DNA from: Candidatus Iainarchaeum sp.
GTDB lineage: Archaea; Iainarchaeota; Iainarchaeia; Iainarchaeales; 0-14-0-20-30-16
Direction of reading: 5' to 3'
NCBI GenBank assembly: GCA_903916665.1
Contig: CAIWXP010000116.1
Location: forward strand, 1-7,429
Length of the DNA: 7,429 nucleotides
Shown: positions 1 to 7,429 of the stretch, piece after piece
Position numbering within the stretch: the stretch's first letter is position 1
How the letters are laid out: each line of letters begins with the position of its first letter
The notes under the pieces: generated by a model
Told to the model about the DNA's origin: nothing
What the model saw: only the letters and a program-made list of their open reading frames with translations
The model's database searches: none
Translations under genes and position numbers: made by a program

Positions 1-2
1 AT

Positions 3-2789
3 TGGAATGACGGCAATGGTTTTATTCCTGTAGGTTATTTAGCTCCGTGGGGTGCATTTACAGGATCATTTAATGGAAATAATCATACGATAAGTAATTT
101 ATTTATTGATAGAAATAGTGATGAGTTAGGATTATTTGGCTACGTACATAATGCAAACATTTATAATTTAAATTTAGTAAATACAAACATTTCAGTAGGA
201 TCAGATTATAGTTATATTTCTGGATTAGCGGGCTATGTTGAAGATTCTAATATTTATGATGTTAATATAAATGACATAAATATTTTTGGACCCGGGGCAT
301 ATTATTTTGGGGCACTATCCGGATACTTTGAAGACTCTAATGTTAATCATGTAAATGTTAGTAATGCAAATGTTTTTGGAGATAAAGATGTTGCTGGATT
401 TTTAGGATATGCTTATGGTTCTATAATTAATGATGTGAATGTTTCTGGAAATATTAATTCATATTATGGTTATGTTGGTGGATTAATTGGTGAAATGGAT
501 GATTCAAATATTTTGAATTCTCATTCATCTATGGATATTAATACAAATTATCCCGAAAAAAATGATTTTATTTGTGCTTATTGCACAGAGCAATATGTTG
601 GTGGTTTAATAGGTTACGCATCAACAGACGAGTGGGAATATAACTACATTAAAAATTCAAGTTCATCAGGAAATTTAACAACTAATGGATTTATTGTTGG
701 TGGTTTAATAGGTGGTTTGCGGGATACACAAATCTCTCAATCCTATGCAACAGGAGATGTAAATGCAAATTATTTTAATTATCTAATTATTAATGATGAT
801 CAAAATACAAATAATTTGTTGTTTTCGCCAGGTTATACAACACAAAGTGTGCCTATTAATCAAACTGAAGATCATAATGTTAGTGTAAGAATATCGTTTA
901 ATAAACCAGAAGTTGACGGACAATATATTCCTGTATTTGCAGATTTAGAAAAAGTATATTTAACCTGTGATGATCAAAATTATTCTCCTAATTCTGCAAT
1001 ATTAAATGATATGAATGATGTTTTAAATGATGTTTTGGAAGTAGATAATAATGCAGTTACATTATCTAACTATGCAACTAATTATTTAGATTTGAATTTT
1101 AGTTTGGGTGATTGTTCAAGTGATATCAATTTATATTTAACTGCAAATGTTTATGGAAAAGGTTTGCCAATGGAATATTATAGTAATTATATTTTGGGGC
1201 AAGATAAAAATTATATAACTTATTGGACTCCATCAACAGGGCATCCAGACGGAAATACGTATATTACAATGTTAGATGATGATGAAAATTTATATGTATA
1301 TGCGGATATAACTTCTGACAATACTTTAGATATTGGTTCTGGTTGGATTGATTTCACAATTGGTGCAAATAGATTCCATGTTGATGATTCAAATACAGAT
1401 TATGGTAATTGTCAATTTGGAATGACTGATAAAGTAAATTACAAACATGAATATTGTAATTTAACAATTCCAAAAAATGATATAAATAATTTAAATCAAG
1501 ATTTTAATTATAGATTAAGATATTATGGTACTGAAGGTGCTTATGGTGTTGGTGGCTTAATAGGTTATGCAAGTGAAGATACTATTAATGAAACCTATTC
1601 TGCTGGAAATGTAAATAGTAATTTAGATAATGTAGGTGGGCTAATTGGAATATTATTACGTTCGGATATAAATAATACTTATTCTACTGGAAATGTAAAT
1701 GGAAATACCAATGTAGGTGGCCTAATTGGTGGTTTGGAATATAATTATAGTTCAGCAAATTCATATTCTATAGGGTTAGTTTCAGGAAATCAATATGCGG
1801 GTGGTTTAATAGGAATTTTATATTCTAGCTCATCAATTATAAATTCATTTACTACTAGTTCAATTTTAGCAAGTGATTCTTATAGTCACAATATTGGTGT
1901 AGTAATAGGGCAGTTTTCAACCGACGATACAGAATCAGGATTATATTATTATAATTCTGATGATTCATTAAATTGTTACCATAATAATAATTCTAATGAT
2001 TATTCTAATGAGGGCTGTACAAAAGTTAATGATGAAAATTATTTTAAAGATAATAATTCAAATGCCCCTTTGAATAGTTGGGACTTTACACATATTTGGA
2101 AAATAAATGAAAATGGTTATCCAACATTAAGAATGATTTCATGGACGCCTGTTACACCTCCGAATAATCATTCATCATCTGGTGGTGGATCAAACACAAT
2201 AACAGTAAATACTTCTGGAATATTAAGAGGAATTTTACAAGGTCAAATAATTGAATTCACTGTTGATAAAAAAGGACATTATGGTATAAAACATAAATTA
2301 ATTGTTAAAGATATAAACTCAGATTTTAATAGTGTAACATTTGATTTATACTCAACACCAATGAGTTATACCTTATCAATTGGACAAGAAATAAAAAGAG
2401 ATTATGATGGTGATGGAAATTACGATTTAAGTGTAAAATTATTATCAATTGTAAATGGAAAAGCTAGCTTTGAATTAAAAGCAATAAATGATCCTGTAAA
2501 TCCAGTCGTTATTGCAGATAAAAATACAAATAACAATACAAATATAAATGTAGATAATAATTCAAATATAAATAGTAATACAAATGTAAATGATAATACA
2601 AATTCAGTTATTATTGATAATAACGGGGATAACAATGTGATTAACAATACAAATACTAATGTTGAAAATAATTTTAACTATGGGTTTGATTGGGGATCAT
2701 TGGTAGTATTGATAATTATCATTATTGTCCTATTTGGTGTTTGGTATTACTTTATTAGAAAGCCAAAGCATCATTATAGACATTTATGA
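3..2789 (+). CDS. Large cell-surface protein, 5'-truncated by the window edge. It has GLUG-motif (GGLIG) beta-helix-type repeats, an inserted Cys-containing domain, an Asn-rich stalk and a C-terminal TM anchor.
   Basis: The frame of the 435 ORF is open from nt 3 with no stop. My hand translation of 3-434 reads WNDGNGFIPVGYLAPWGAFTGSFNGNNHTISNLFIDRNSDELGLFGYVHNANIYNLNLVNTNISVGSDYSYISGLAGYVEDSNIYDVNIND... There is no in-frame ATG before the GTG at 435, so the track start is an artefact and the real start lies upstream of the window. The protein contains an FxGxFNGNNHTISNL motif and seven exact GGLIG motifs plus degenerate copies (SGLAGY, GALSGY, AGFLGY). The repeat units end in xN(S/T)YxxGxVxG. 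A WDFTHIWKINENGYPTLR module follows. The hydrophobic span LVVLIIIIIVLFGVWYYFI (2700-2756) is followed by the basic tail RKPKHHYRHL and a TGA stop at 2787-2789. Confidence 0.85.
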   Translation, partial: WNDGNGFIPVGYLAPWGAFTGSFNGNNHTISNLFIDRNSDELGLFGYVHNANIYNLNLVNTNISVGSDYSYISGLAGYVEDSNIYDVNINDINIFGPGAYYFGALSGYFEDSNVNHVNVSNANVFGDKDVAGFLGYAYGSIINDVNVSGNINSYYGYVGGLIGEMDDSNILNSHSSMDINTNYPEKNDFICAYCTEQYVGGLIGYASTDEWEYNYIKNSSSSGNLTTNGFIVGGLIGGLRDTQISQSYATGDVNANYFNYLIINDDQNTNNLLFSPGYTTQSVPINQTEDHNVSVRISFNKPEVDGQYIPVFADLEKVYLTCDDQNYSPNSAILNDMNDVLNDVLEVDNNAVTLSNYATNYLDLNFSLGDCSSDINLYLTANVYGKGLPMEYYSNYILGQDKNYITYWTPSTGHPDGNTYITMLDDDENLYVYADITSDNTLDIGSGWIDFTIGANRFHVDDSNTDYGNCQFGMTDKVNYKHEYCNLTIPKNDINNLNQDFNYRLRYYGTEGAYGVGGLIGYASEDTINETYSAGNVNSNLDNVGGLIGILLRSDINNTYSTGNVNGNTNVGGLIGGLEYNYSSANSYSIGLVSGNQYAGGLIGILYSSSSIINSFTTSSILASDSYSHNIGVVIGQFSTDDTESGLYYYNSDDSLNCYHNNNSNDYSNEGCTKVNDENYFKDNNSNAPLNSWDFTHIWKINENGYPTLRMISWTPVTPPNNHSSSGGGSNTITVNTSGILRGILQGQIIEFTVDKKGHYGIKHKLIVKDINSDFNSVTFDLYSTPMSYTLSIGQEIKRDYDGDGNYDLSVKLLSIVNGKASFELKAINDPVNPVVIADKNTNNNTNINVDNNSNINSNTNVNDNTNSVIIDNNGDNNVINNTNTNVENNFNYGFDWGSLVVLIIIIIVLFGVWYYFIRKPKHHYRHL
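2523..2678 (+). repeat. Asn-rich low-complexity stalk with (N-x)n dipeptide periodicity, inside the surface-protein CDS
   Basis: The translation is NTNNNTNINVDNNSNINSNTNVNDNTNSVIIDNNGDNNVINNTNTNVENNFN. At the DNA level it is degenerate AAT-NNN reiteration (aat aca aat aac aat aca aat ata aat gta ...). It sits between the last folded module and the TM anchor. Confidence 0.7.
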
Positions 2790-2915: not shown

Positions 2916-3953
2916 ATGGATGCAAGTAGAAAGTTTGAGTTAATTACAAGAAATCTACAAGAAGTAATGGAAGAAGCACAATTGAAAGAAATATTAGATA
3001 AAAGAGATTTAAAAGTATATTTAGGCACTGCCCCAACAGGGAGAGTTCATATAGGTTATTTAATTCCTTTTACTAAGTTTGCTGATTTTTTAGAGGCCGG
3101 TTGTGAAGTAACAATTTTATTAGCTGATTTACATGCTTTTTTAGATTCGCAAAAAACTCCTTGGGAATTATTGGATGCAAGAACTTTATACTATGAACAA
3201 GTAATTAAAGAAACTTTGAAAGCAATGAAAGTTGATATTACAAAATTAAAATTTGTAAGAGGAACAGACTATCAATTATCAAGAGAATTTTGTTTGGATG
3301 TTTATAGATTTGCAAGTATAACAACAGTAAATGAAGGAATAAAAGCTGGTGCCGACGTTGTTAAACAAAGTGAGAATCCAAGATTAGCACCTGTGTTATA
3401 TCCTTTGTTACAAAGTTTGGATGAAGAATATTTGAAAGTAGATGCTCAATTTGGTGGAAATGATCAAAGAAAAATATTTGTTATGGCCCACGAATATTTA
3501 CCTAAATTAGGTTATAAAAAAAGAATACATTTAATGAATCCTATGCTACCTGGATTAACAGGTGGAAAAATGAGTGCTTCAGACCCAAGTTCTAAAATAG
3601 ATTTATTAGATACTTCAGAGGCAATAAAGAAAAAATTAAATGGTGCATTTTGTCCTGAAGGTGTTATCGAAGGCAATGGTGTATTAACATTTATTAAATA
3701 TGTTTTATTTCCTTATTTAGAAAGAATAAATCAAAGTTTTAATGTTGAAAGACCAGATAAATTTGGTGGAAATGTTTCATTTGCAAATTATACTGAATTA
3801 GAAAATGTATTTGTTGAAAAGAAAATACATCCGATGGATTTAAAAAATTCAATTGCAAAATATTTGATACAAATATTAGCGCCTGTTAGAACAGCATTTG
3901 AATCTCAAGAGTATAGTGCAAACCTAGAAAAAGCATATTCAAATGAAAAGTGA
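2916..3953 (+). CDS. tyrS: Tyrosyl-tRNA synthetase, archaeal/eukaryal type (class Ic)
   Basis: The HIGH-type motif is H-I-G-Y (3048-3059, in GRVHIGYL). The KMSKS-type motif is K-M-S-A-S (3567-3581). From memory, the protein is collinear with Methanocaldococcus jannaschii TyrRS along its whole length: DLHAFLD, ENPRLAPVLYPLLQSLD, GGNDQRKI, CPEGVIEGNG, ERPDKFGGN and HPMDLKN all match. The Tyr-specifying Tyr (KVYLGTAPTG) and Asp (QSLD) are retained, which favours Tyr over Trp specificity. Confidence 0.95.
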   Translation: MDASRKFELITRNLQEVMEEAQLKEILDKRDLKVYLGTAPTGRVHIGYLIPFTKFADFLEAGCEVTILLADLHAFLDSQKTPWELLDARTLYYEQVIKETLKAMKVDITKLKFVRGTDYQLSREFCLDVYRFASITTVNEGIKAGADVVKQSENPRLAPVLYPLLQSLDEEYLKVDAQFGGNDQRKIFVMAHEYLPKLGYKKRIHLMNPMLPGLTGGKMSASDPSSKIDLLDTSEAIKKKLNGAFCPEGVIEGNGVLTFIKYVLFPYLERINQSFNVERPDKFGGNVSFANYTELENVFVEKKIHPMDLKNSIAKYLIQILAPVRTAFESQEYSANLEKAYSNEK

Positions 3954-3957
3954 TTTC

Positions 3958-4362
3958 ATGCAAATAAGAAAAGCAAAAACTAGTGATGCACAAGGTTCAT
4001 TCAAAGTAATTCAATGTGACTTTGGTAAACATATTTTAAAGAAAGATTTTGAATTAAGTTCAAAGAATAAAGATGTTGTTTATTTAGTTTTAGAAGATCA
4101 AAAGAAAATAATTGGTTATGTTCTAGGTTTTATTGTTCCAACAAGAAGAACAGAAGCTTTAATTCATGAAGTGCGAATTTTAGGATCCTATAGAGGAAAA
4201 AATTTGGGTAAAAAATTAGTTGATGCCTGTTGTAAAGAATTATTTGCAAAAGGCGTAAAAGATATTTATGCTGAAATAGAAAGCGAATTAGAAAAGTTTT
4301 ATTGTAAAACCTGTAAATTTAAAAAAGTAAATAATTGGATTGAAGTAGTTAAGAAAAAATAA
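3958..4362 (+). CDS. Small GNAT-family N-acetyltransferase (RimI-like size)
   Basis: It has a GNAT core: beta4/motif A is IHEVRILGSYRGKNLGKKLVDACCKELFAKG, an R-x-x-G-x-G/A variant (RGKNLG), and it ends with a FY..C.FKKV tail. I prefer the ATG at 3958. That start gives MQIRKAKTSDA, a typical GNAT N-terminus, and is preceded by SD-like GTGAT at 3950-3954, 4 nt after the tyrS stop. The track start ATG at 3943 overlaps tyrS by 11 nt and cannot be excluded. Confidence 0.75.
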   Translation: MQIRKAKTSDAQGSFKVIQCDFGKHILKKDFELSSKNKDVVYLVLEDQKKIIGYVLGFIVPTRRTEALIHEVRILGSYRGKNLGKKLVDACCKELFAKGVKDIYAEIESELEKFYCKTCKFKKVNNWIEVVKKK

Positions 4363-4466: not shown

Positions 4467-4616
4467 TGCCAAAAGGGGGACTTGAACCCCCGACCTCCAG
4501 ATTTCCCATTTCAAGAAATCTATCTAATCATCAACCTTCTTTCAAAGGTTTCATCACTCACAATTTCAATTTAAACATTATGAGTCTGGCGCTCTAACCA
4601 ACTGAGCTACCTTGGC
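4467..4616 (-). tRNA. tRNA-Met(CAU), elongator-type (tRNA-Ile2 CAU not excluded), with a 76-nt intron at canonical position 37/38; CCA is not encoded
   Basis: The minus strand reads GCCAAGG-TA-GCTC-AGTTGGTTA-GAGC-G-CCAGA-CTCATA[intron]A-TCTGG-AGGTC-GGGGG-TTCAAGT-CCCCC-TTTTGGC-A. The acceptor stem is 7 bp (G1-C72, with two G-U pairs at 6:67 and 7:66). U8, G18G19 and the T-loop TTCAAGT are present. The anticodon CAT is at 4582-4580. Removing 4503-4578 gives a 74-nt cloverleaf. It is not an initiator, because it has G1-C72 and no GGG/CCC in the anticodon stem. The 3' flank is TCAAAA, so there is no genomic CCA. Confidence 0.9.
4503..4578 (-). ncRNA. tRNA intron with box C/D-like architecture: two UGAUGA boxes, D-like UUGA/AUGA boxes, a k-turn, and antisense elements to C34 and U39 of the host pre-tRNA
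   Basis: GUGAUGA lies at 4551-4557 and UGAUGA at 4528-4533 (minus strand). UUGA lies at 4511-4514 and 4542-4545. The hairpin AACCUU/AAGGUU spans 4533-4550. There are 7-9 bp complementarities to both splice-junction regions, with N+5 registers on C34 and U39 (details in findings). No canonical CUGA is present and the terminal C/D pairing is unresolved, hence the moderate confidence. Confidence 0.45.
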
Positions 4617-4717: not shown

Positions 4718-5731
4718 TTATAGATTAACTTCTAAAAGAATATCTTTTTCTCTTTCTTCTTTTTTAGATTTTGTTCCTAACATGGTTTCACAAACATATA
4801 AACAATCATCCAAATAATCATCTTTTTTTGGATAAATTATTTTTGCATTTAAACCAGAATAGGCTAAAAAAGGAATTATAACATTTGCCGCATGAGTATC
4901 CAAAGGAGTATCTCTAGCAACCAAACTAATTACTTTATCTGCCATTTCTTTACCCAATTGACTAGGTTGTTTTTTTGTTGAACAAACATTGGCACCTAAA
5001 ACTGTATTATCATATATCAAAACAATATCTGCACCATAACCTTTATGTTTTTCTCTGTTTTCAACAAATGTACTAATATATTCATTAAGTAAAATATTTT
5101 TTGGAGTTAAAGTATTTTTTATTCCATCAATAATATAATTGTTTACACTTTCACCATGACCATAGGAATGAACGTACATTATTGAATGTTCCAAATCTCC
5201 TTTTTCTAACATTGTAAAAGATTTTAATTTTGTTGATTCTTTTGTAAATAAAATAATTTTGCCAGGTTCTTCACCATAGCCTCTTTTTGTAATTTCTATA
5301 TTTGCGTTAACATTAATCTTTTTTAACAAAGGAATAATTACTTTTTGGAAGTAATCTCCACTTAATTTATTTTCATAGTTTGTTGGGCCCGTTAATGAAA
5401 TTTTTTGGGTTGTTGAATGATATAATAAAAGTAAATAGGGTAACATTACTGATATTAATGCAGGATGTCTAAAGTTTATTTGTGGGGCACTTTTAATTGT
5501 TTTTGGGTCAAATTCTATTTCTGTTGAGCCCTTTTCTATTCCTTTTGATTCTGCACCAGCAATTTGCTCGAATATTTTGACATAGATATAATCTTCATAG
5601 GTTAATCCAGGCTTATCTGCTGCACTTCGAATATTAATTATTTTAATGGGTTCTTTTTTTAGTGTGGAAAAAGTTAATGCTAACCGGAGTGTAAACCCGG
5701 GATGTGTCCTGTTTGCATCTATTATTATCAT
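4718..5731 (-). CDS. RNA 3'-terminal phosphate cyclase (RtcA)-fold protein lacking the catalytic His and other active-site residues; Rcl1-like
   Basis: The protein is collinear with RtcA: IIIDANRTHPGFTLRLALTFSTLKKEPIKIINIRSAADKPGL aligns with the family pattern DG..GEGGGQ.LR.ALSLS...G.P..I..IRA.R..PGL..QH. GSTEIEFDP aligns with GS....F.PG, and LDTHAANVIIPFLAYSG with (D/G)E(H/Y)L.DQL...MALA. I prefer the ATG at 5731 (MIIID...) to the track's GTG at 5740, because a TATA-like box at 5757-5769 would place the TSS near 5737. The stop is TAA at 4718-4720. Confidence 0.8.
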   Translation of the reverse strand: MIIIDANRTHPGFTLRLALTFSTLKKEPIKIINIRSAADKPGLTYEDYIYVKIFEQIAGAESKGIEKGSTEIEFDPKTIKSAPQINFRHPALISVMLPYLLLLYHSTTQKISLTGPTNYENKLSGDYFQKVIIPLLKKINVNANIEITKRGYGEEPGKIILFTKESTKLKSFTMLEKGDLEHSIMYVHSYGHGESVNNYIIDGIKNTLTPKNILLNEYISTFVENREKHKGYGADIVLIYDNTVLGANVCSTKKQPSQLGKEMADKVISLVARDTPLDTHAANVIIPFLAYSGLNAKIIYPKKDDYLDDCLYVCETMLGTKSKKEEREKDILLEVNL

Positions 5732-5756
5732 TTTTATCACACAAAAATTACAATTA

Positions 5757-5861: not shown

Positions 5862-6887
5862 ATGAGCTTCTTGGTAATTGGCAATGAAATTGATGCTTTA
5901 ATAATAGCAAAATTTTTGAAAGAGCGAGGTTGGCCCGTTTCTTTATTATCTAAACAAAGATTTGAATATAAATCAGATTGCGAATTGGTAAATCCTGACG
6001 AATTTAAAGAAGCCGGCTATGATTATAAAAAAGGATTTTTGACTAATATTGAAACAATGGAAGTAATTGATTTATTAGGTAATAAATTTGAAACTAAAAC
6101 AAATACTATTTTGATAAATTTAGCAGTATATAAAAATGACCTATTGAAAACTTTGAAGGGTTGTAATCTCTATGAGAATTCAACCTATATTGATAAAAAT
6201 AATGAGAATATATTTATTCAACATGGGGATCATGGAACATTAATTAAATCAAAGCATGTTATTGGGGTAAATGATATTAATTTGGCAAAGACAGTTTTTG
6301 ACCCAGTAACAAAGAATTGCATCAAAGCAACAGTTGAAAGACGTGCAGAAATTGGTCGATTAACATTAAAGTTTTTAGAAAGTGGGTATATTTGGATTGT
6401 TAATTATAGTGATAGAATTGGAGAATTATGTGTTGTTTCTGATGATCCCGAGAAAGATTTAAATGAATTTATTTTTGAGAATAATTTTAAAATAATTTAT
6501 AAAAAAGGTATTGCGATTCCTTTTTTCAAGAAAGATAGAATAGTTATTAATAAAAATGTATACTTATCAGGGGCATCCGCATTAATTACAAATAATTTAA
6601 ATTTTTATAATTTGATTTTGCATTTGAAGTTTGCAGAATTAACAGGTACGTTTGCTCATGAGTTAATGACAAAGAAAAATATTAGTTATCCTTATTTTAC
6701 AAAAGAGTTTGATGAGGAATTATCAAAAATTGAGAAAAAAGGAAAAGTATTCTGGGCATTGAATAAACAAAAGAAAAATGAGTTAATCCACAAAATGAAT
6801 TTTTCAAGATTTGCTTTGGATTTTAACACAGCCTATGATAATTTATCAAGTATTTCAACAGTAAAATTAAAATTATTATTTAGCTAG
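5862..6887 (+). CDS. Geranylgeranyl reductase / FAD-dependent oxidoreductase-fold protein with degenerate cofactor motifs (function uncertain)
   Basis: The N-terminal Rossmann pattern is MSFLVIGNEIDALIIAKFLKERGWPVSLLSK, compared with the family pattern DV.VVGAGPAG..AA..LA..G..VL..EK. HVIGVNDINL corresponds to vIgADG..S, SGYIWIVNYSD to GY.WvFP.g, and VYLSGASALITNNLNFYNL to v.LvGDAAg.v.P.tG.Gi. The ORF is complete from ATG to TAG. The family assignment comes from motif order only. Confidence 0.6.
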   Translation: MSFLVIGNEIDALIIAKFLKERGWPVSLLSKQRFEYKSDCELVNPDEFKEAGYDYKKGFLTNIETMEVIDLLGNKFETKTNTILINLAVYKNDLLKTLKGCNLYENSTYIDKNNENIFIQHGDHGTLIKSKHVIGVNDINLAKTVFDPVTKNCIKATVERRAEIGRLTLKFLESGYIWIVNYSDRIGELCVVSDDPEKDLNEFIFENNFKIIYKKGIAIPFFKKDRIVINKNVYLSGASALITNNLNFYNLILHLKFAELTGTFAHELMTKKNISYPYFTKEFDEELSKIEKKGKVFWALNKQKKNELIHKMNFSRFALDFNTAYDNLSSISTVKLKLLFS

Positions 6888-6895
6888 ATGATGCC

Positions 6896-7429
6896 ATGTT
6901 TAAGAAATTATCAAATGATTTTGAGAATTTTATTAGTAATCTTAAGAAGAGTCCTATTTTTTCCTATTGGCGAGTTATTTTATTTGGAATATTAACAATA
7001 ATCTTAATTGTATTTTTATATTTGAAATTTGACTTTGTTGCATTTTGGAATTCTGTTAAACTTTTGAGTTGGCAAGCCTTTGTGTGGTTGGCATTACTAT
7101 CTATATTTGAACAGGTTTTATCCTGGGAAAGATACAAAAGGTTTTTATCAAAAAGTAATTATGCACAAATAAATGATTATATTACTGTTGCAACGGTTGG
7201 AGCGACAATTCCTCCGAAGCCTTTAGGATTATATTATAGATTTGTTTTATCTACACATTTATTTAAAACAAAAGTAAAAGAAACTGCTTTTTTAATTGCA
7301 ATAGATACTGCAATTGAAGGTATCTTTATTGTTGTTTTTGCAATTTTCGCATTGTTTTTATTTCCTCAAGTTAATTTGGGTTTAGAAGTTATATTATATT
7401 TATTGGGAATTTTAGGGATATTATATTTA
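6896..7429 (+). CDS. Multi-pass membrane protein, UPF0104 / flippase-like domain family (MprF-TM-like), 3'-truncated by the window edge
   Basis: This ORF is not in the supplied track because it has no stop in the window. I translated 178 codons with no stop from the ATG at 6896: MFKKLSNDFENFISNLKKSPIFSYWRVILFGILTIILIVFLYLKFDFVAFWNSVKLLSWQAFVWLALLSIFEQVLSWERYKRFLSK...VGATIPPKPLGLYYRFVLSTHLFKTKVKETAFLIAIDTAIEGIFIVVFAIFALFLFP... It has several hydrophobic spans. The family-typical layout is present: a basic N-terminus, a TM span, L..L..W..RW/Y..(L/F)L, and G...P...G...R. The gene starts 8 nt after the upstream stop, so it probably shares an operon with it. Confidence 0.65.
   Translation, partial: MFKKLSNDFENFISNLKKSPIFSYWRVILFGILTIILIVFLYLKFDFVAFWNSVKLLSWQAFVWLALLSIFEQVLSWERYKRFLSKSNYAQINDYITVATVGATIPPKPLGLYYRFVLSTHLFKTKVKETAFLIAIDTAIEGIFIVVFAIFALFLFPQVNLGLEVILYLLGILGILYL

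What the first reader, a model, noticed from the sequence alone, without database searches (positions are those of the whole stretch)
4718..5740. RtcA-fold protein missing the adenylylated histidine and other active-site residues: an Rcl1-like pseudo-cyclase in an archaeon
The ORF aligns end to end with RNA 3'-phosphate cyclases, but the catalytic positions are substituted. The GEGGGQ.LR loop is RTHPGFTLR (5684-5719). IRA.R..PGL..QH is IRSAADKPGLTYED, so the second Arg and the Gln-His are lost. In the C-terminal segment that carries the nucleophilic His (E. coli His309, in ..CH(L/T)(L/Q)T..), this protein has KKDDYLDDCLYVCETML. That places a Tyr (codon 4814-4816) at the aligned position, with no His nearby. 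Loss of this His and of cyclase activity is what distinguishes eukaryal Rcl1, the pre-18S rRNA processome factor, from RtcA. The local pattern F.LRL.L....K.PIKI..IRS....PGL also resembles my memory of Rcl1 more than RtcA. Rcl1 is generally treated as eukaryote-specific. An archaeal cyclase-dead paralogue would therefore be worth a look, either as an RNA-binding or processing factor or as an enzyme with a different nucleophile. The alignment was done by eye and could be off by a few residues.
Basis: partly seen in the sequence, partly recalled or inferred. Interest (0 to 1): 0.65.

Follow-up and report, generated by a model that had tools for sequence, protein, structure and literature searches.

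The report
Catalytically dead RtcA cyclase homologue
[quoted passage not shown] This parallels eukaryotic Rcl1 but arose separately, and its new job is unknown.

Summary
Pfam RTC gives 4e-33, the AlphaFold model has pLDDT 96.6, and TM is 0.89 to P. horikoshii and E. coli RtcA.

Three alignment methods put Tyr306 (codon 4814-4816) at the nucleophilic His. They also give Arg43 to Ala, Gln51-His52 to Glu-Asp, Gln18 to Phe and Glu14 to His. All 144 of the nearest canonical RtcA relatives that span the nucleophile column keep these residues.

The protein belongs to a narrow clade: about 16 sequence clusters and 3 GTDB species genomes, one named Candidatus Diapherotrites. The clade is under purifying selection (dN/dS about 0.15).

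It is not an Rcl1 relative. The profile-profile score is 366 to RtcA and 127 to Rcl1, and NJ bootstrap groups it with Rcl1 in only 17 of 200 replicates. Synteny with a canonical Diapherotrites RtcA suggests a degenerated orthologue.

I infer a non-catalytic binding role, but the function is untested. Every locus checked has an intron-containing tRNA(CAU) just downstream, and its intron carries a covarying K-turn.

This is a new variant of a known kind, of moderate interest.

The parts
4718..5731 (-). RtcA-fold pseudo-cyclase gene. It is 337 aa from the ATG at 5731; the longest ORF extends to a GTG at 5740, giving 340 aa.
   Evidence: ORF list. Pfam RTC 4.3e-33. Homologues all start MI(I/T)ID. 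AlphaFold2 pLDDT 96.6. Foldseek TM 0.89 to RtcA 4o89.
4814..4816 (-). Tyr306 codon (Tyr309 in 340-aa numbering), at the position of the adenylylated His (E. coli His309, P. horikoshii His307).
   Evidence: phmmer alignment to 4o89. MAFFT column is H in 144 of 164 sequences and Y/F/R in the clade. hhalign agrees.
5684..5704 (-). H-P-G-F-T-L-R loop replacing E-G-G-G-Q-x-L-R. Glu14 becomes His, one Gly is deleted, Gln18 becomes Phe, and Arg21 is kept (Arg16).
5591..5632 (-). I-R-S-A-A-D-K-P-G-L-T-Y-E-D replacing I-R-A-x-R-x-x-P-G-L-x-x-Q-H. Arg40 is kept (Arg35). Arg43 becomes Ala, Gln51 becomes Glu, and His52 becomes Asp (Asp47, invariant in the clade).
   Evidence: The roles of the Pho equivalents R36, R39, Q47 and H48 come from PMC4174438.
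4467..4616 (-). Context: tRNA(CAU) gene with a 76-nt intron (exon 1 4616-4578, intron 4577-4502, exon 2 4501-4467). It lies 101 nt downstream of the pseudo-cyclase stop, on the same strand. The same adjacency is present in all 7 clade loci examined.
   Evidence: Rfam RF00005 56.4 bits; ARAGORN misses it. Related loci.
4525..4557 (-). Context: K-turn element inside the tRNA intron (GUGAUGA, hairpin, GAUGAUUA).
   Evidence: The sequence pattern is conserved in 6 distinct loci. All 5 stem pairs counted show compensatory changes and 100% pairing.
5862..6887 (+). Context: divergently transcribed 341-aa protein that always accompanies the pseudo-cyclase. It has a geranylgeranyl-reductase-like fold and a degenerate dinucleotide-binding motif.
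   Evidence: No Pfam hit. AlphaFold2 pLDDT 87.7. Foldseek TM 0.81 to Ta0516. It has 17 homologues, several apparently on the same contigs as the pseudo-cyclase, judged by matching contig lengths. Adjacent in L001, L004, L007 and L013.

Best explanation
The gene encodes a folded RtcA-derived protein that can no longer act as an RNA 3'-phosphate cyclase. It has no histidine to accept AMP. The arginine that stabilises the transfer step is gone. The Gln-His pair that grips the RNA 3'-phosphate has become Glu-Asp, and the nucleotide-track residues are replaced.

It is most likely the degenerated positional orthologue of RtcA in one narrow Diapherotrites (DPANN) lineage, not a relative of eukaryotic Rcl1. 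Selection keeps the remodelled pocket and several new charged motifs. I therefore infer that it works as a non-catalytic binding module for a protein or RNA partner, as Rcl1 uses its dead pocket to hold a Bms1 peptide.

Shown: the fold, the loss of catalytic residues, the narrow clade, purifying selection and separation from Rcl1. Inferred: loss of cyclase activity, orthology by synteny, and the binding role. The partner is unknown.
For: - Fold: pLDDT 96.6; TM 0.87-0.90 and rmsd 2.3-2.8 to RtcA structures.
- Catalytic losses are seen by phmmer, MAFFT and hhalign.
- Of 37 columns at least 85% conserved in canonical RtcA, the clade keeps 18. The losses include Pho Q14, R39, Q47, H48, the GTAGS loop, Q100, Y157/P158, D286 and H307.
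- Desai et al. 2014 show R17, R36, R39 and H307 variants are inactive, and that R17, R36, Q47 and H48 bind the 3'-phosphate.
- A search of 1.84 billion representatives gives the clade (594 and 426 bits), then a drop to 162 bits and a continuum of canonical RtcA. Only the clade and P0018 lack the His.
- The replacement residues are fixed within the clade: D47, P90, P98, P116 and N283 are invariant.
- dN/dS is 0.14-0.15, similar to the neighbouring TyrRS.
- Not Rcl1.
- Orthology: the canonical RtcA P0020 is from another Candidatus Diapherotrites MAG. Its locus shares A24 peptidase-SRP54 and MacB/FtsX downstream of the RTC gene, in the same orientation.
- Precedent for a dead pocket used as a peptide-binding site: the Rcl1-Bms1 structure.
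Against: - No biochemical data exist, so inactivity is inferred from sequence alone.
- Two of the five 3'-phosphate contacts are kept and invariant (Arg16 and Arg35, plus the Gly12 backbone), so some phosphate or RNA binding could survive.
- A conserved remodelled pocket is also what a changed enzymatic activity would look like.
- I could not check whether the same genomes also carry a canonical RtcA. The orthologue-versus-paralogue question therefore rests on loose synteny.
- No partner is identified. The constant neighbours (GGR-like protein, tRNA) may simply be inherited gene order within a narrow lineage.
Confidence: 0.62

Rival explanations
1. It is still an enzyme, with different chemistry or a different nucleophile. 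The nucleophile could be the invariant Lys302 in the P-K-K-D motif four residues before Tyr306, or Tyr306 itself. The remodelled acidic pocket (His10, Glu46, Asp47) could bind a metal or another substrate.
For: The substituted pocket residues are conserved rather than random: D47, N283, P90, P98 and P116 are invariant, and K302 is invariant across the clade including P0017. Arg16 and Arg35 are retained. Purifying selection is strong.
Against: Tyr306 is Phe in P0015 and P0017 and Arg in P0014. His10 is Glu in P0015 and P0017, and Glu46 is Ser or Cys in four members. No complete alternative catalytic set is therefore invariant. The residues that hold adenosine and the RNA track in RtcA are also replaced. 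No known RTC-fold enzyme uses Lys or Tyr.
Confidence: 0.13
2. It is a true archaeal Rcl1, an orthologue or sister of the eukaryotic pre-18S processing factor. The shared loss of the active site would then be inherited rather than convergent.
For: The same kinds of substitution occur at three catalytic columns. R43 is acidic in both. H52 is Asp here and Glu in Rcl1. H309 is Tyr here, Tyr in vertebrate Rcl1 and Arg in yeast Rcl1 (yeast R321).
Against: TIGR03400 Rcl1 gives 84 bits against a cut-off of 228, lower than the RtcA model. hhalign to Rcl1 is 127, against 366 to RtcA; canonical RtcA is closer to Rcl1 (281) than this clade is. The clade(+P0018)+Rcl1 bipartition appears in 17 of 200 bootstraps, even though two long branches should attract. 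TM is 0.83 to Rcl1 and 0.89 to RtcA. Length is RtcA-like at 337 aa, against 360-373 aa for Rcl1. The distribution is confined to one small DPANN lineage. The syntenic counterpart is a canonical RtcA.
Confidence: 0.03
3. It is a decaying relic with no function, an RtcA gene drifting towards loss in reduced DPANN genomes.
For: DPANN genomes are reduced and fast-evolving. The clade sits on a long branch, with mean distance 2.18 to other RtcA against 1.26 among RtcA.
Against: Intact full-length ORFs occur in about 16 clusters spanning 42-84% identity, with 60 invariant columns. dN/dS is about 0.15, comparable to TyrRS. The predicted fold is very confident. New clade-specific motifs are conserved.
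Confidence: 0.05
4. It is an ordinary active RtcA, and the apparent losses come from misalignment.
Against: Three independent aligners and a structure comparison agree. No His occurs within the C-terminal helix segment PKKDDYLDDCLYVCETML. The Q-H pair and Arg43 are absent from the whole IRS...YED segment.
Confidence: 0.01

Closest known systems
RtcA, RNA 3'-terminal phosphate cyclase (class I; E. coli RtcA, P. horikoshii RtcA PDB 4o89; TIGR03399, Pfam PF01137 + PF05189)
   Same: It has the same four-domain fold and the same length (TM 0.87-0.90). It is the closest family by sequence profile (hhalign 366). Arg21 and Arg40 (E. coli numbering) and the structural Gly/Pro framework are retained. 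The genomic position is shared with a canonical Diapherotrites RtcA.
   Different: The nucleophilic His is lost, as are Arg43, Gln51-His52, Gln18, Glu14, the GTAGS loop, the Tyr-Pro RNA-stacking pair and the Asp of the D-Q motif. It scores at half the equivalog cut-off. It has new conserved motifs: HSYGH, FVENREKHKGYGAD, KKQPTQLGKE, PKKDxY and KKEEREKD.
[quoted passage not shown]
   Same: It is an RTC-fold protein that has lost the adenylylated His and the other cyclase residues but remains under selection. It has the same kind of replacements at three catalytic columns. The likely logic is the same: a dead enzyme reused as a binding module.
   Different: It is not specifically related. It is archaeal and confined to a few Diapherotrites genomes. 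It is shorter and lacks the Rcl1 insertions and C-terminal extension. No Bms1 or U3 context is evident, and archaea have no SSU processome (established knowledge).
P0018, a second His-less RTC-fold protein from another uncultured archaeon
   Same: It lacks His309 (Lys), Arg43 (Glu), Gln51 (Arg), His52 (Asp) and Gln18 (Phe). It is the NJ sister of the clade in 194 of 200 bootstraps.
   Different: It is only about 26% identical, scores 162 bits against 426-594 for clade members, and sits in a different context: DNA ligase, RTC-like, proteasome beta, KH/beta-CASP RNase. The sister grouping could be long-branch attraction.

Membership tests
RtcA (RNA 3'-phosphate cyclase, class I) | RTC fold: three repeated domains plus the insert domain | tested here: met
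   Pfam PF01137 at 4.3e-33. PF05189 scores 22.2 bits, just under its cut-off of 23. The AlphaFold2 model has pLDDT 96.6, and Foldseek gives TM 0.89 to 4o89 and 0.87-0.90 to E. coli RtcA.
RtcA (RNA 3'-phosphate cyclase, class I) | Nucleophilic histidine that forms the His-AMP intermediate (E. coli His309, Pho His307) | tested here: not met
   This protein has Tyr306. Across the clade the position is Tyr in 12 members, Phe in 2 and Arg in 1. All 144 canonical neighbours that span this column have His.
RtcA (RNA 3'-phosphate cyclase, class I) | RNA 3'-phosphate binding set (Pho Arg17, Arg36, Gln47, His48) and transition-state Arg39 | tested here: not met
   Arg17 and Arg36 are kept. Gln47 becomes Glu, His48 becomes Asp (invariant), and Arg39 becomes Ala (variable in the clade). 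Residue roles are from PMC4174438.
RtcA (RNA 3'-phosphate cyclase, class I) | Score at or above the curated equivalog cut-off (TIGR03399, NF003246) | tested here: not met
   122.9 bits against a cut-off of 250.05, and 96.6 bits against 352.
RtcA (RNA 3'-phosphate cyclase, class I) | ATP-dependent autoadenylylation and cyclisation of RNA 3'-phosphate | not testable with these tools
   This needs biochemistry with purified protein.
Rcl1 (eukaryotic cyclase-like processome factor) | RTC fold with the cyclase catalytic residues not conserved | tested here: met
   Rcl1 features are from PMC4150785.
Rcl1 (eukaryotic cyclase-like processome factor) | Score at or above the curated cut-off of TIGR03400 | tested here: not met
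   84.2 bits against a cut-off of 227.95, which is lower than its score on the RtcA model.
Rcl1 (eukaryotic cyclase-like processome factor) | Common descent with eukaryotic Rcl1 to the exclusion of RtcA | tested here: not met
   The bipartition clade(+P0018)+Rcl1 appears in 17 of 200 NJ bootstraps. Mean distance is 2.94 to Rcl1 and 2.18 to RtcA. hhalign gives 127 against 366. Caveats: only NJ with a Kimura correction was used, and only 7 Rcl1 sequences (vertebrates and fungi) were included.
Rcl1 (eukaryotic cyclase-like processome factor) | Complex with the GTPase Bms1 and a role in pre-18S cleavage within the SSU processome | not testable with these tools
   There is no Bms1-like gene in the about 20-kb neighbourhoods examined. 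The whole genomes could not be scanned.

The most novel reading that the evidence does not exclude
The dead cyclase may have been recruited as a non-catalytic RNA-processing factor, an archaeal convergent counterpart of Rcl1. It might act on intron-containing pre-tRNA or the tRNA-splicing and end-healing machinery. Its gene is always followed by a tRNA(CAU) whose unusually long intron carries a K-turn and a guide aimed at C34.
Probability: 0.1. Interest if true: 0.7.

Novelty: new variant of a known kind. Interest (0 to 1): 0.42.

Why it matters
RtcA is universal, but its physiological role in archaea is still unclear. The only well-known inactive derivative is eukaryotic Rcl1. A second, independent conversion of the cyclase fold into a conserved non-enzyme would show that this scaffold is easily reused. 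The parallel substitutions at the same pocket positions would give a natural comparison for how the Rcl1 pocket changed.

It also matters for annotation. At least one member of the cluster (P0012) is already named 'RNA 3'-terminal phosphate cyclase' by its source, so RNA-repair capacity would be over-called in these DPANN genomes.

The limits are real. The clade is tiny, known only from metagenomes, and has no assigned function.

Tried and rejected
- **Rcl1 kinship.** I tested it with TIGRFAM scores, NJ bootstrap, profile-profile scores and structure, and rejected it.
- **Tyr306 as a new nucleophile.** Rejected as a general explanation, because the position is Phe or Arg in three clade members.
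- **Operon link to RtcB or other RNA-repair genes.** None appears in the about 20-kb neighbourhoods of six clade loci.
- **Functional link through the divergent neighbour.** It turned out to be a geranylgeranyl-reductase-like protein next to a membrane protein (LPG_synthase_TM). It points to lipids, not RNA.
- **Context of the nearest canonical relative, P0016.** It is unrelated.
- **Model coordinates.** They are not exposed, so I could not measure distances in the remodelled pocket.
- **Literature.** Searches found no description of an archaeal inactive RtcA.
Full report
**1. What is at the coordinates**

The window is AT-rich, at 25-31% G+C. It holds these features:
- a GLUG-repeat surface protein, running from the window start to 2789 (+);
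- a tyrosyl-tRNA synthetase at 2916-3953 (+);
- a small GNAT acetyltransferase at 3943-4362 (+);
- the ORF of the finding at 4718-5740 (-);
- a divergent 341-aa ORF at 5862-6887 (+);
- the start of a membrane protein from 6893 (+).

The ORF matches Pfam RTC from residue 17 to 324 (E = 4.3e-33), and RTC_insert weakly. Homologues and gene callers begin at the ATG at 5731 (MI(I/T)IDAN..., 337 aa), so the three residues from the GTG at 5740 are probably not translated.

**2.

phmmer against PDB sequences finds P. horikoshii RtcA (4o89, 1e-19) end to end. Counting in the E. coli alignment of the same call gives the table below.

| E. coli RtcA | This protein |
|---|---|
| Glu14 | His10 |
| one Gly of GGG | deleted |
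| Gln18 | Phe13 |
| Arg21 | Arg16 (kept) |
| Arg40 | Arg35 (kept) |
| Arg43 | Ala38 |
| Gln51 | Glu46 |
| His52 | Asp47 |
| His309 | Tyr306 |

MAFFT alignments of 164-167 sequences and hhalign give the same columns.

Desai et al. 2014 (PMC4174438) show the following for the Pyrococcus enzyme:
- Arg17, Arg36, Gln47, His48 and the Gly13 amide hold the RNA 3'-phosphate.
- Arg39 stabilises the transfer step, and His307 carries AMP.
- R17, R36, R39 and H307 variants are inactive.

Here two of the four side chains that hold the phosphate are gone, along with the transition-state Arg and the nucleophile.

The RNA track is replaced too: T91-A-G-S94, Y157 and P158, and R45 (Thr44 in the alignment). W125 falls in a segment that is also rewritten. 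Of 37 columns at least 85% conserved in canonical RtcA, the clade keeps 18. These are mostly Gly, Pro and hydrophobic residues, plus the two Arg.

This is not general lineage drift. The TyrRS next door scores 332 bits against a cut-off of 220, while this protein reaches 123 bits against 250 on the RtcA equivalog model.

**3. It is a real, folded, selected protein in a narrow clade**

- AlphaFold2 with a 106-sequence alignment gives pLDDT 96.6 and pTM 0.93.
- Foldseek gives TM 0.87-0.90 to RtcA structures and 0.83 to Rcl1.
- The word-indexed search of 5.8 billion proteins finds only 15 relatives, at 42-84% identity, plus one canonical-looking protein at 31%.
- The exhaustive profile search of 1.84 billion representatives finds two full-length clade representatives (594 and 426 bits) and an 89-residue fragment (158 bits). 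Scores then drop to 162 bits and a continuum of ordinary RtcA.
- Among the 164 near-full-length sequences aligned from these two searches, only the clade and one other protein (P0018) lack the His.
- Three GTDB species genomes carry the gene. One is Candidatus Diapherotrites archaeon CG08_land, and the other two are unnamed archaeal MAGs.
- Within the clade 60 columns are invariant. They include the replacement residues Asp47, Pro90, Pro98, Pro116 and Asn283.
- New motifs are conserved: HSYGH, FVENREKHKGYGAD, KKQPTQLGKE, PKKDxY and KKEEREKD.
- dN/dS against the loci of P0007 and P0004 is 0.14-0.15, as for TyrRS. dS is near saturation, so this is only a rough figure.
- The nucleophile position is not fixed: Tyr in 12 members, Phe in 2, Arg in 1.

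**4. Relation to Rcl1**

In Rcl1 the Arg43 column is mostly Asp and the His52 column is Glu. The His309 column is Arg in yeast (R321, PMC4150785) and Tyr in vertebrates. Every global measure nevertheless says RtcA:

| Measure | To RtcA | To Rcl1 |
|---|---|---|
| TIGRFAM model score (bits) | 122.9 | 84.2 |
| PDB phmmer E-value | 1e-19 | 9e-9 |
| Foldseek TM | 0.89 | 0.83 |
| Mean corrected distance | 2.18 | 2.94 |
| hhalign score | 366 | 127 |

For reference, the mean corrected distance between RtcA and Rcl1 is 2.48, and the hhalign score between canonical RtcA and Rcl1 is 281.

In 200 NJ bootstraps the clade and Rcl1 are each monophyletic 200 times. A clade(+P0018)+Rcl1 split appears only 17 times, although both are long branches. 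I read the shared substitutions as parallel decay of one pocket. Once the phosphate ligand is no longer bound, acidic residues opposite the retained arginines are an obvious way to neutralise it; this last point is inference.

The tree method is simple and the Rcl1 sampling is thin (vertebrates and fungi), so a model-based phylogeny is still needed.

**5. Orthologue or paralogue**

P0020 is one of the closest canonical RtcAs, with all catalytic residues present. It comes from another Candidatus Diapherotrites MAG. In its locus the rtcA gene is followed by MacB/FtsX and, 2 kb on, by an A24 peptidase and SRP54 on the opposite strand.

The pseudo-cyclase loci show A24 peptidase-SRP54 in the same relative position and orientation in L001 and L004, and the A24 peptidase in L013. 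L007 has MacB/FtsX. The proteins are homologous.

This loose synteny favours a degenerated orthologue. I could not scan the genomes for a second rtcA or for rtcB.

**6. Surroundings and possible function**

*The tRNA downstream.* In all seven clade loci examined, the gene is followed on the same strand, within about 90-170 nt, by a tRNA(CAU) with a long intron of 76-123 nt at the canonical 37/38 position. ARAGORN misses it.

The intron contains a conserved element: xU(G/A)AUGA, a hairpin, then (G/A)AUGAUUA. It obeys the K-turn rule of a GA before the stem, and a 3-nt bulge plus GA after it. All five stem pairs counted show compensatory changes.

Upstream of the AUGA lies UU(A/G)UGA(G/A)U(G/A), complementary to the anticodon loop. 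Its fifth nucleotide upstream of AUGA pairs with C34 in every locus (read). That is the geometry of a box D' guide for Cm34. Cm34 of tRNA-Met is known to be guided by C/D sRNAs in Pyrococcus, and a tRNA-Trp intron is known to encode such a guide (PMC7994747). The same pairing is also what a splicing bulge-helix-bulge motif needs, so I leave this as a lead.

The tRNA has its own A/T-rich upstream box, and the gene is followed by T runs, so co-transcription is not implied.

*The divergent neighbour.* It has the same narrow distribution and a geranylgeranyl-reductase-like fold (TM 0.81 to Ta0516). Its GxGxxG motif is degenerate (IGNEIDA), and it sits next to a membrane protein (LPG_synthase_TM), so it points to lipids rather than RNA.

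*Overall.* No RNA-repair partner is nearby. By analogy with Rcl1, whose dead pocket binds a Bms1 peptide, and given the acidified pocket and new charged surface motifs, I favour a non-catalytic binding role. A changed enzymatic activity cannot be excluded, because Lys302 and Asp47 are invariant.

**7. Verdict**

This is a new, independently evolved inactive variant of the RtcA family in a small DPANN lineage. I found no paper describing it. It is of moderate interest: a clear case, useful for annotation and for understanding how the RTC fold is reused, but confined to a few MAGs and without an assigned function.

Noticed in passing
window 4467-4616 (-); also L001 11369-11527, L004 11096-11267, L007 7973-8153, L013 11099-11294, L016 about 7152-7350, L017 7129-7300: A tRNA(CAU) gene with a 76-nt intron (84-123 nt in related loci) at position 37/38 lies directly downstream of the pseudo-cyclase gene in all 7 clade loci. 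ARAGORN does not find it; Rfam does (56.4 bits).
   Followed up: partly
window 4525-4557 (-), inside the tRNA intron: A conserved K-turn-like element (GUGAUGA, hairpin, GAUGAUUA) has 5 of 5 stem pairs covarying across loci. The 9 nt before its AUGA are complementary to the anticodon loop. The fifth nucleotide upstream pairs with C34, as in a box D' guide for Cm34. It would be a half-size intron-encoded C'/D' guide. No terminal C and D boxes were seen, and no Rfam C/D family matches.
   Followed up: partly
window 5862-6887 (+): An orphan 341-aa protein with no Pfam hit always lies divergent to the pseudo-cyclase. Its predicted fold is geranylgeranyl reductase or flavoprotein-monooxygenase-like (TM 0.81 to Ta0516). 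The N-terminal GxGxxG motif reads IGNEIDA, so FAD binding may also be lost. That would be a second possibly degenerate enzyme next to the first.
   Followed up: partly
P0018; loci L008 8001-9020, L009, L010: A second RTC-fold protein from another uncultured archaeon lacks the catalytic residues (Lys at His309, Asp at His52, Phe at Gln18). It sits between a DNA ligase gene and proteasome beta plus a KH/beta-CASP RNase. It is the NJ sister of the clade (194 of 200), which may be long-branch attraction.
   Followed up: partly
alignment column of E. coli His309: Vertebrate Rcl1 has Tyr (SPY) at the column where yeast Rcl1 has Arg321 and this clade has Tyr. Rcl1 and the clade also both carry an acidic residue at the His52 column, and mostly at the Arg43 column. 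This is a parallel substitution pattern in two independently inactivated lineages.
   Followed up: partly
many near relatives (e.g. P0016, P0021, P0025, P0042): Numerous otherwise canonical DPANN-like RtcA proteins (His309, Arg43 and Gln-His present) appear to lack the metal-binding Glu14 and have a shortened loop (GY-GQ instead of GEGGGQ). This may be a loop misalignment or a real variant.
   Followed up: no
L001 13755-14825 (-) versus window 2916-3953 (+): The class Ib aminoacyl-tRNA synthetase near the pseudo-cyclase in L001 is only 35% identical to the window's TyrRS. Those of L013 and L004 are about 80% identical, although L001's other genes are about 70% identical. This suggests a different paralogue or a gene displacement.
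   Followed up: no
window 1-2789 (+): A large GLUG-repeat protein runs off the window start. It has Asn-rich low-complexity stretches and a C-terminal hydrophobic anchor followed by basic residues, so it is probably a cell-surface protein.
   Followed up: no
window 3943-3953: The GNAT acetyltransferase start overlaps the TyrRS stop by 11 nt, which suggests the two are co-transcribed.
   Followed up: no
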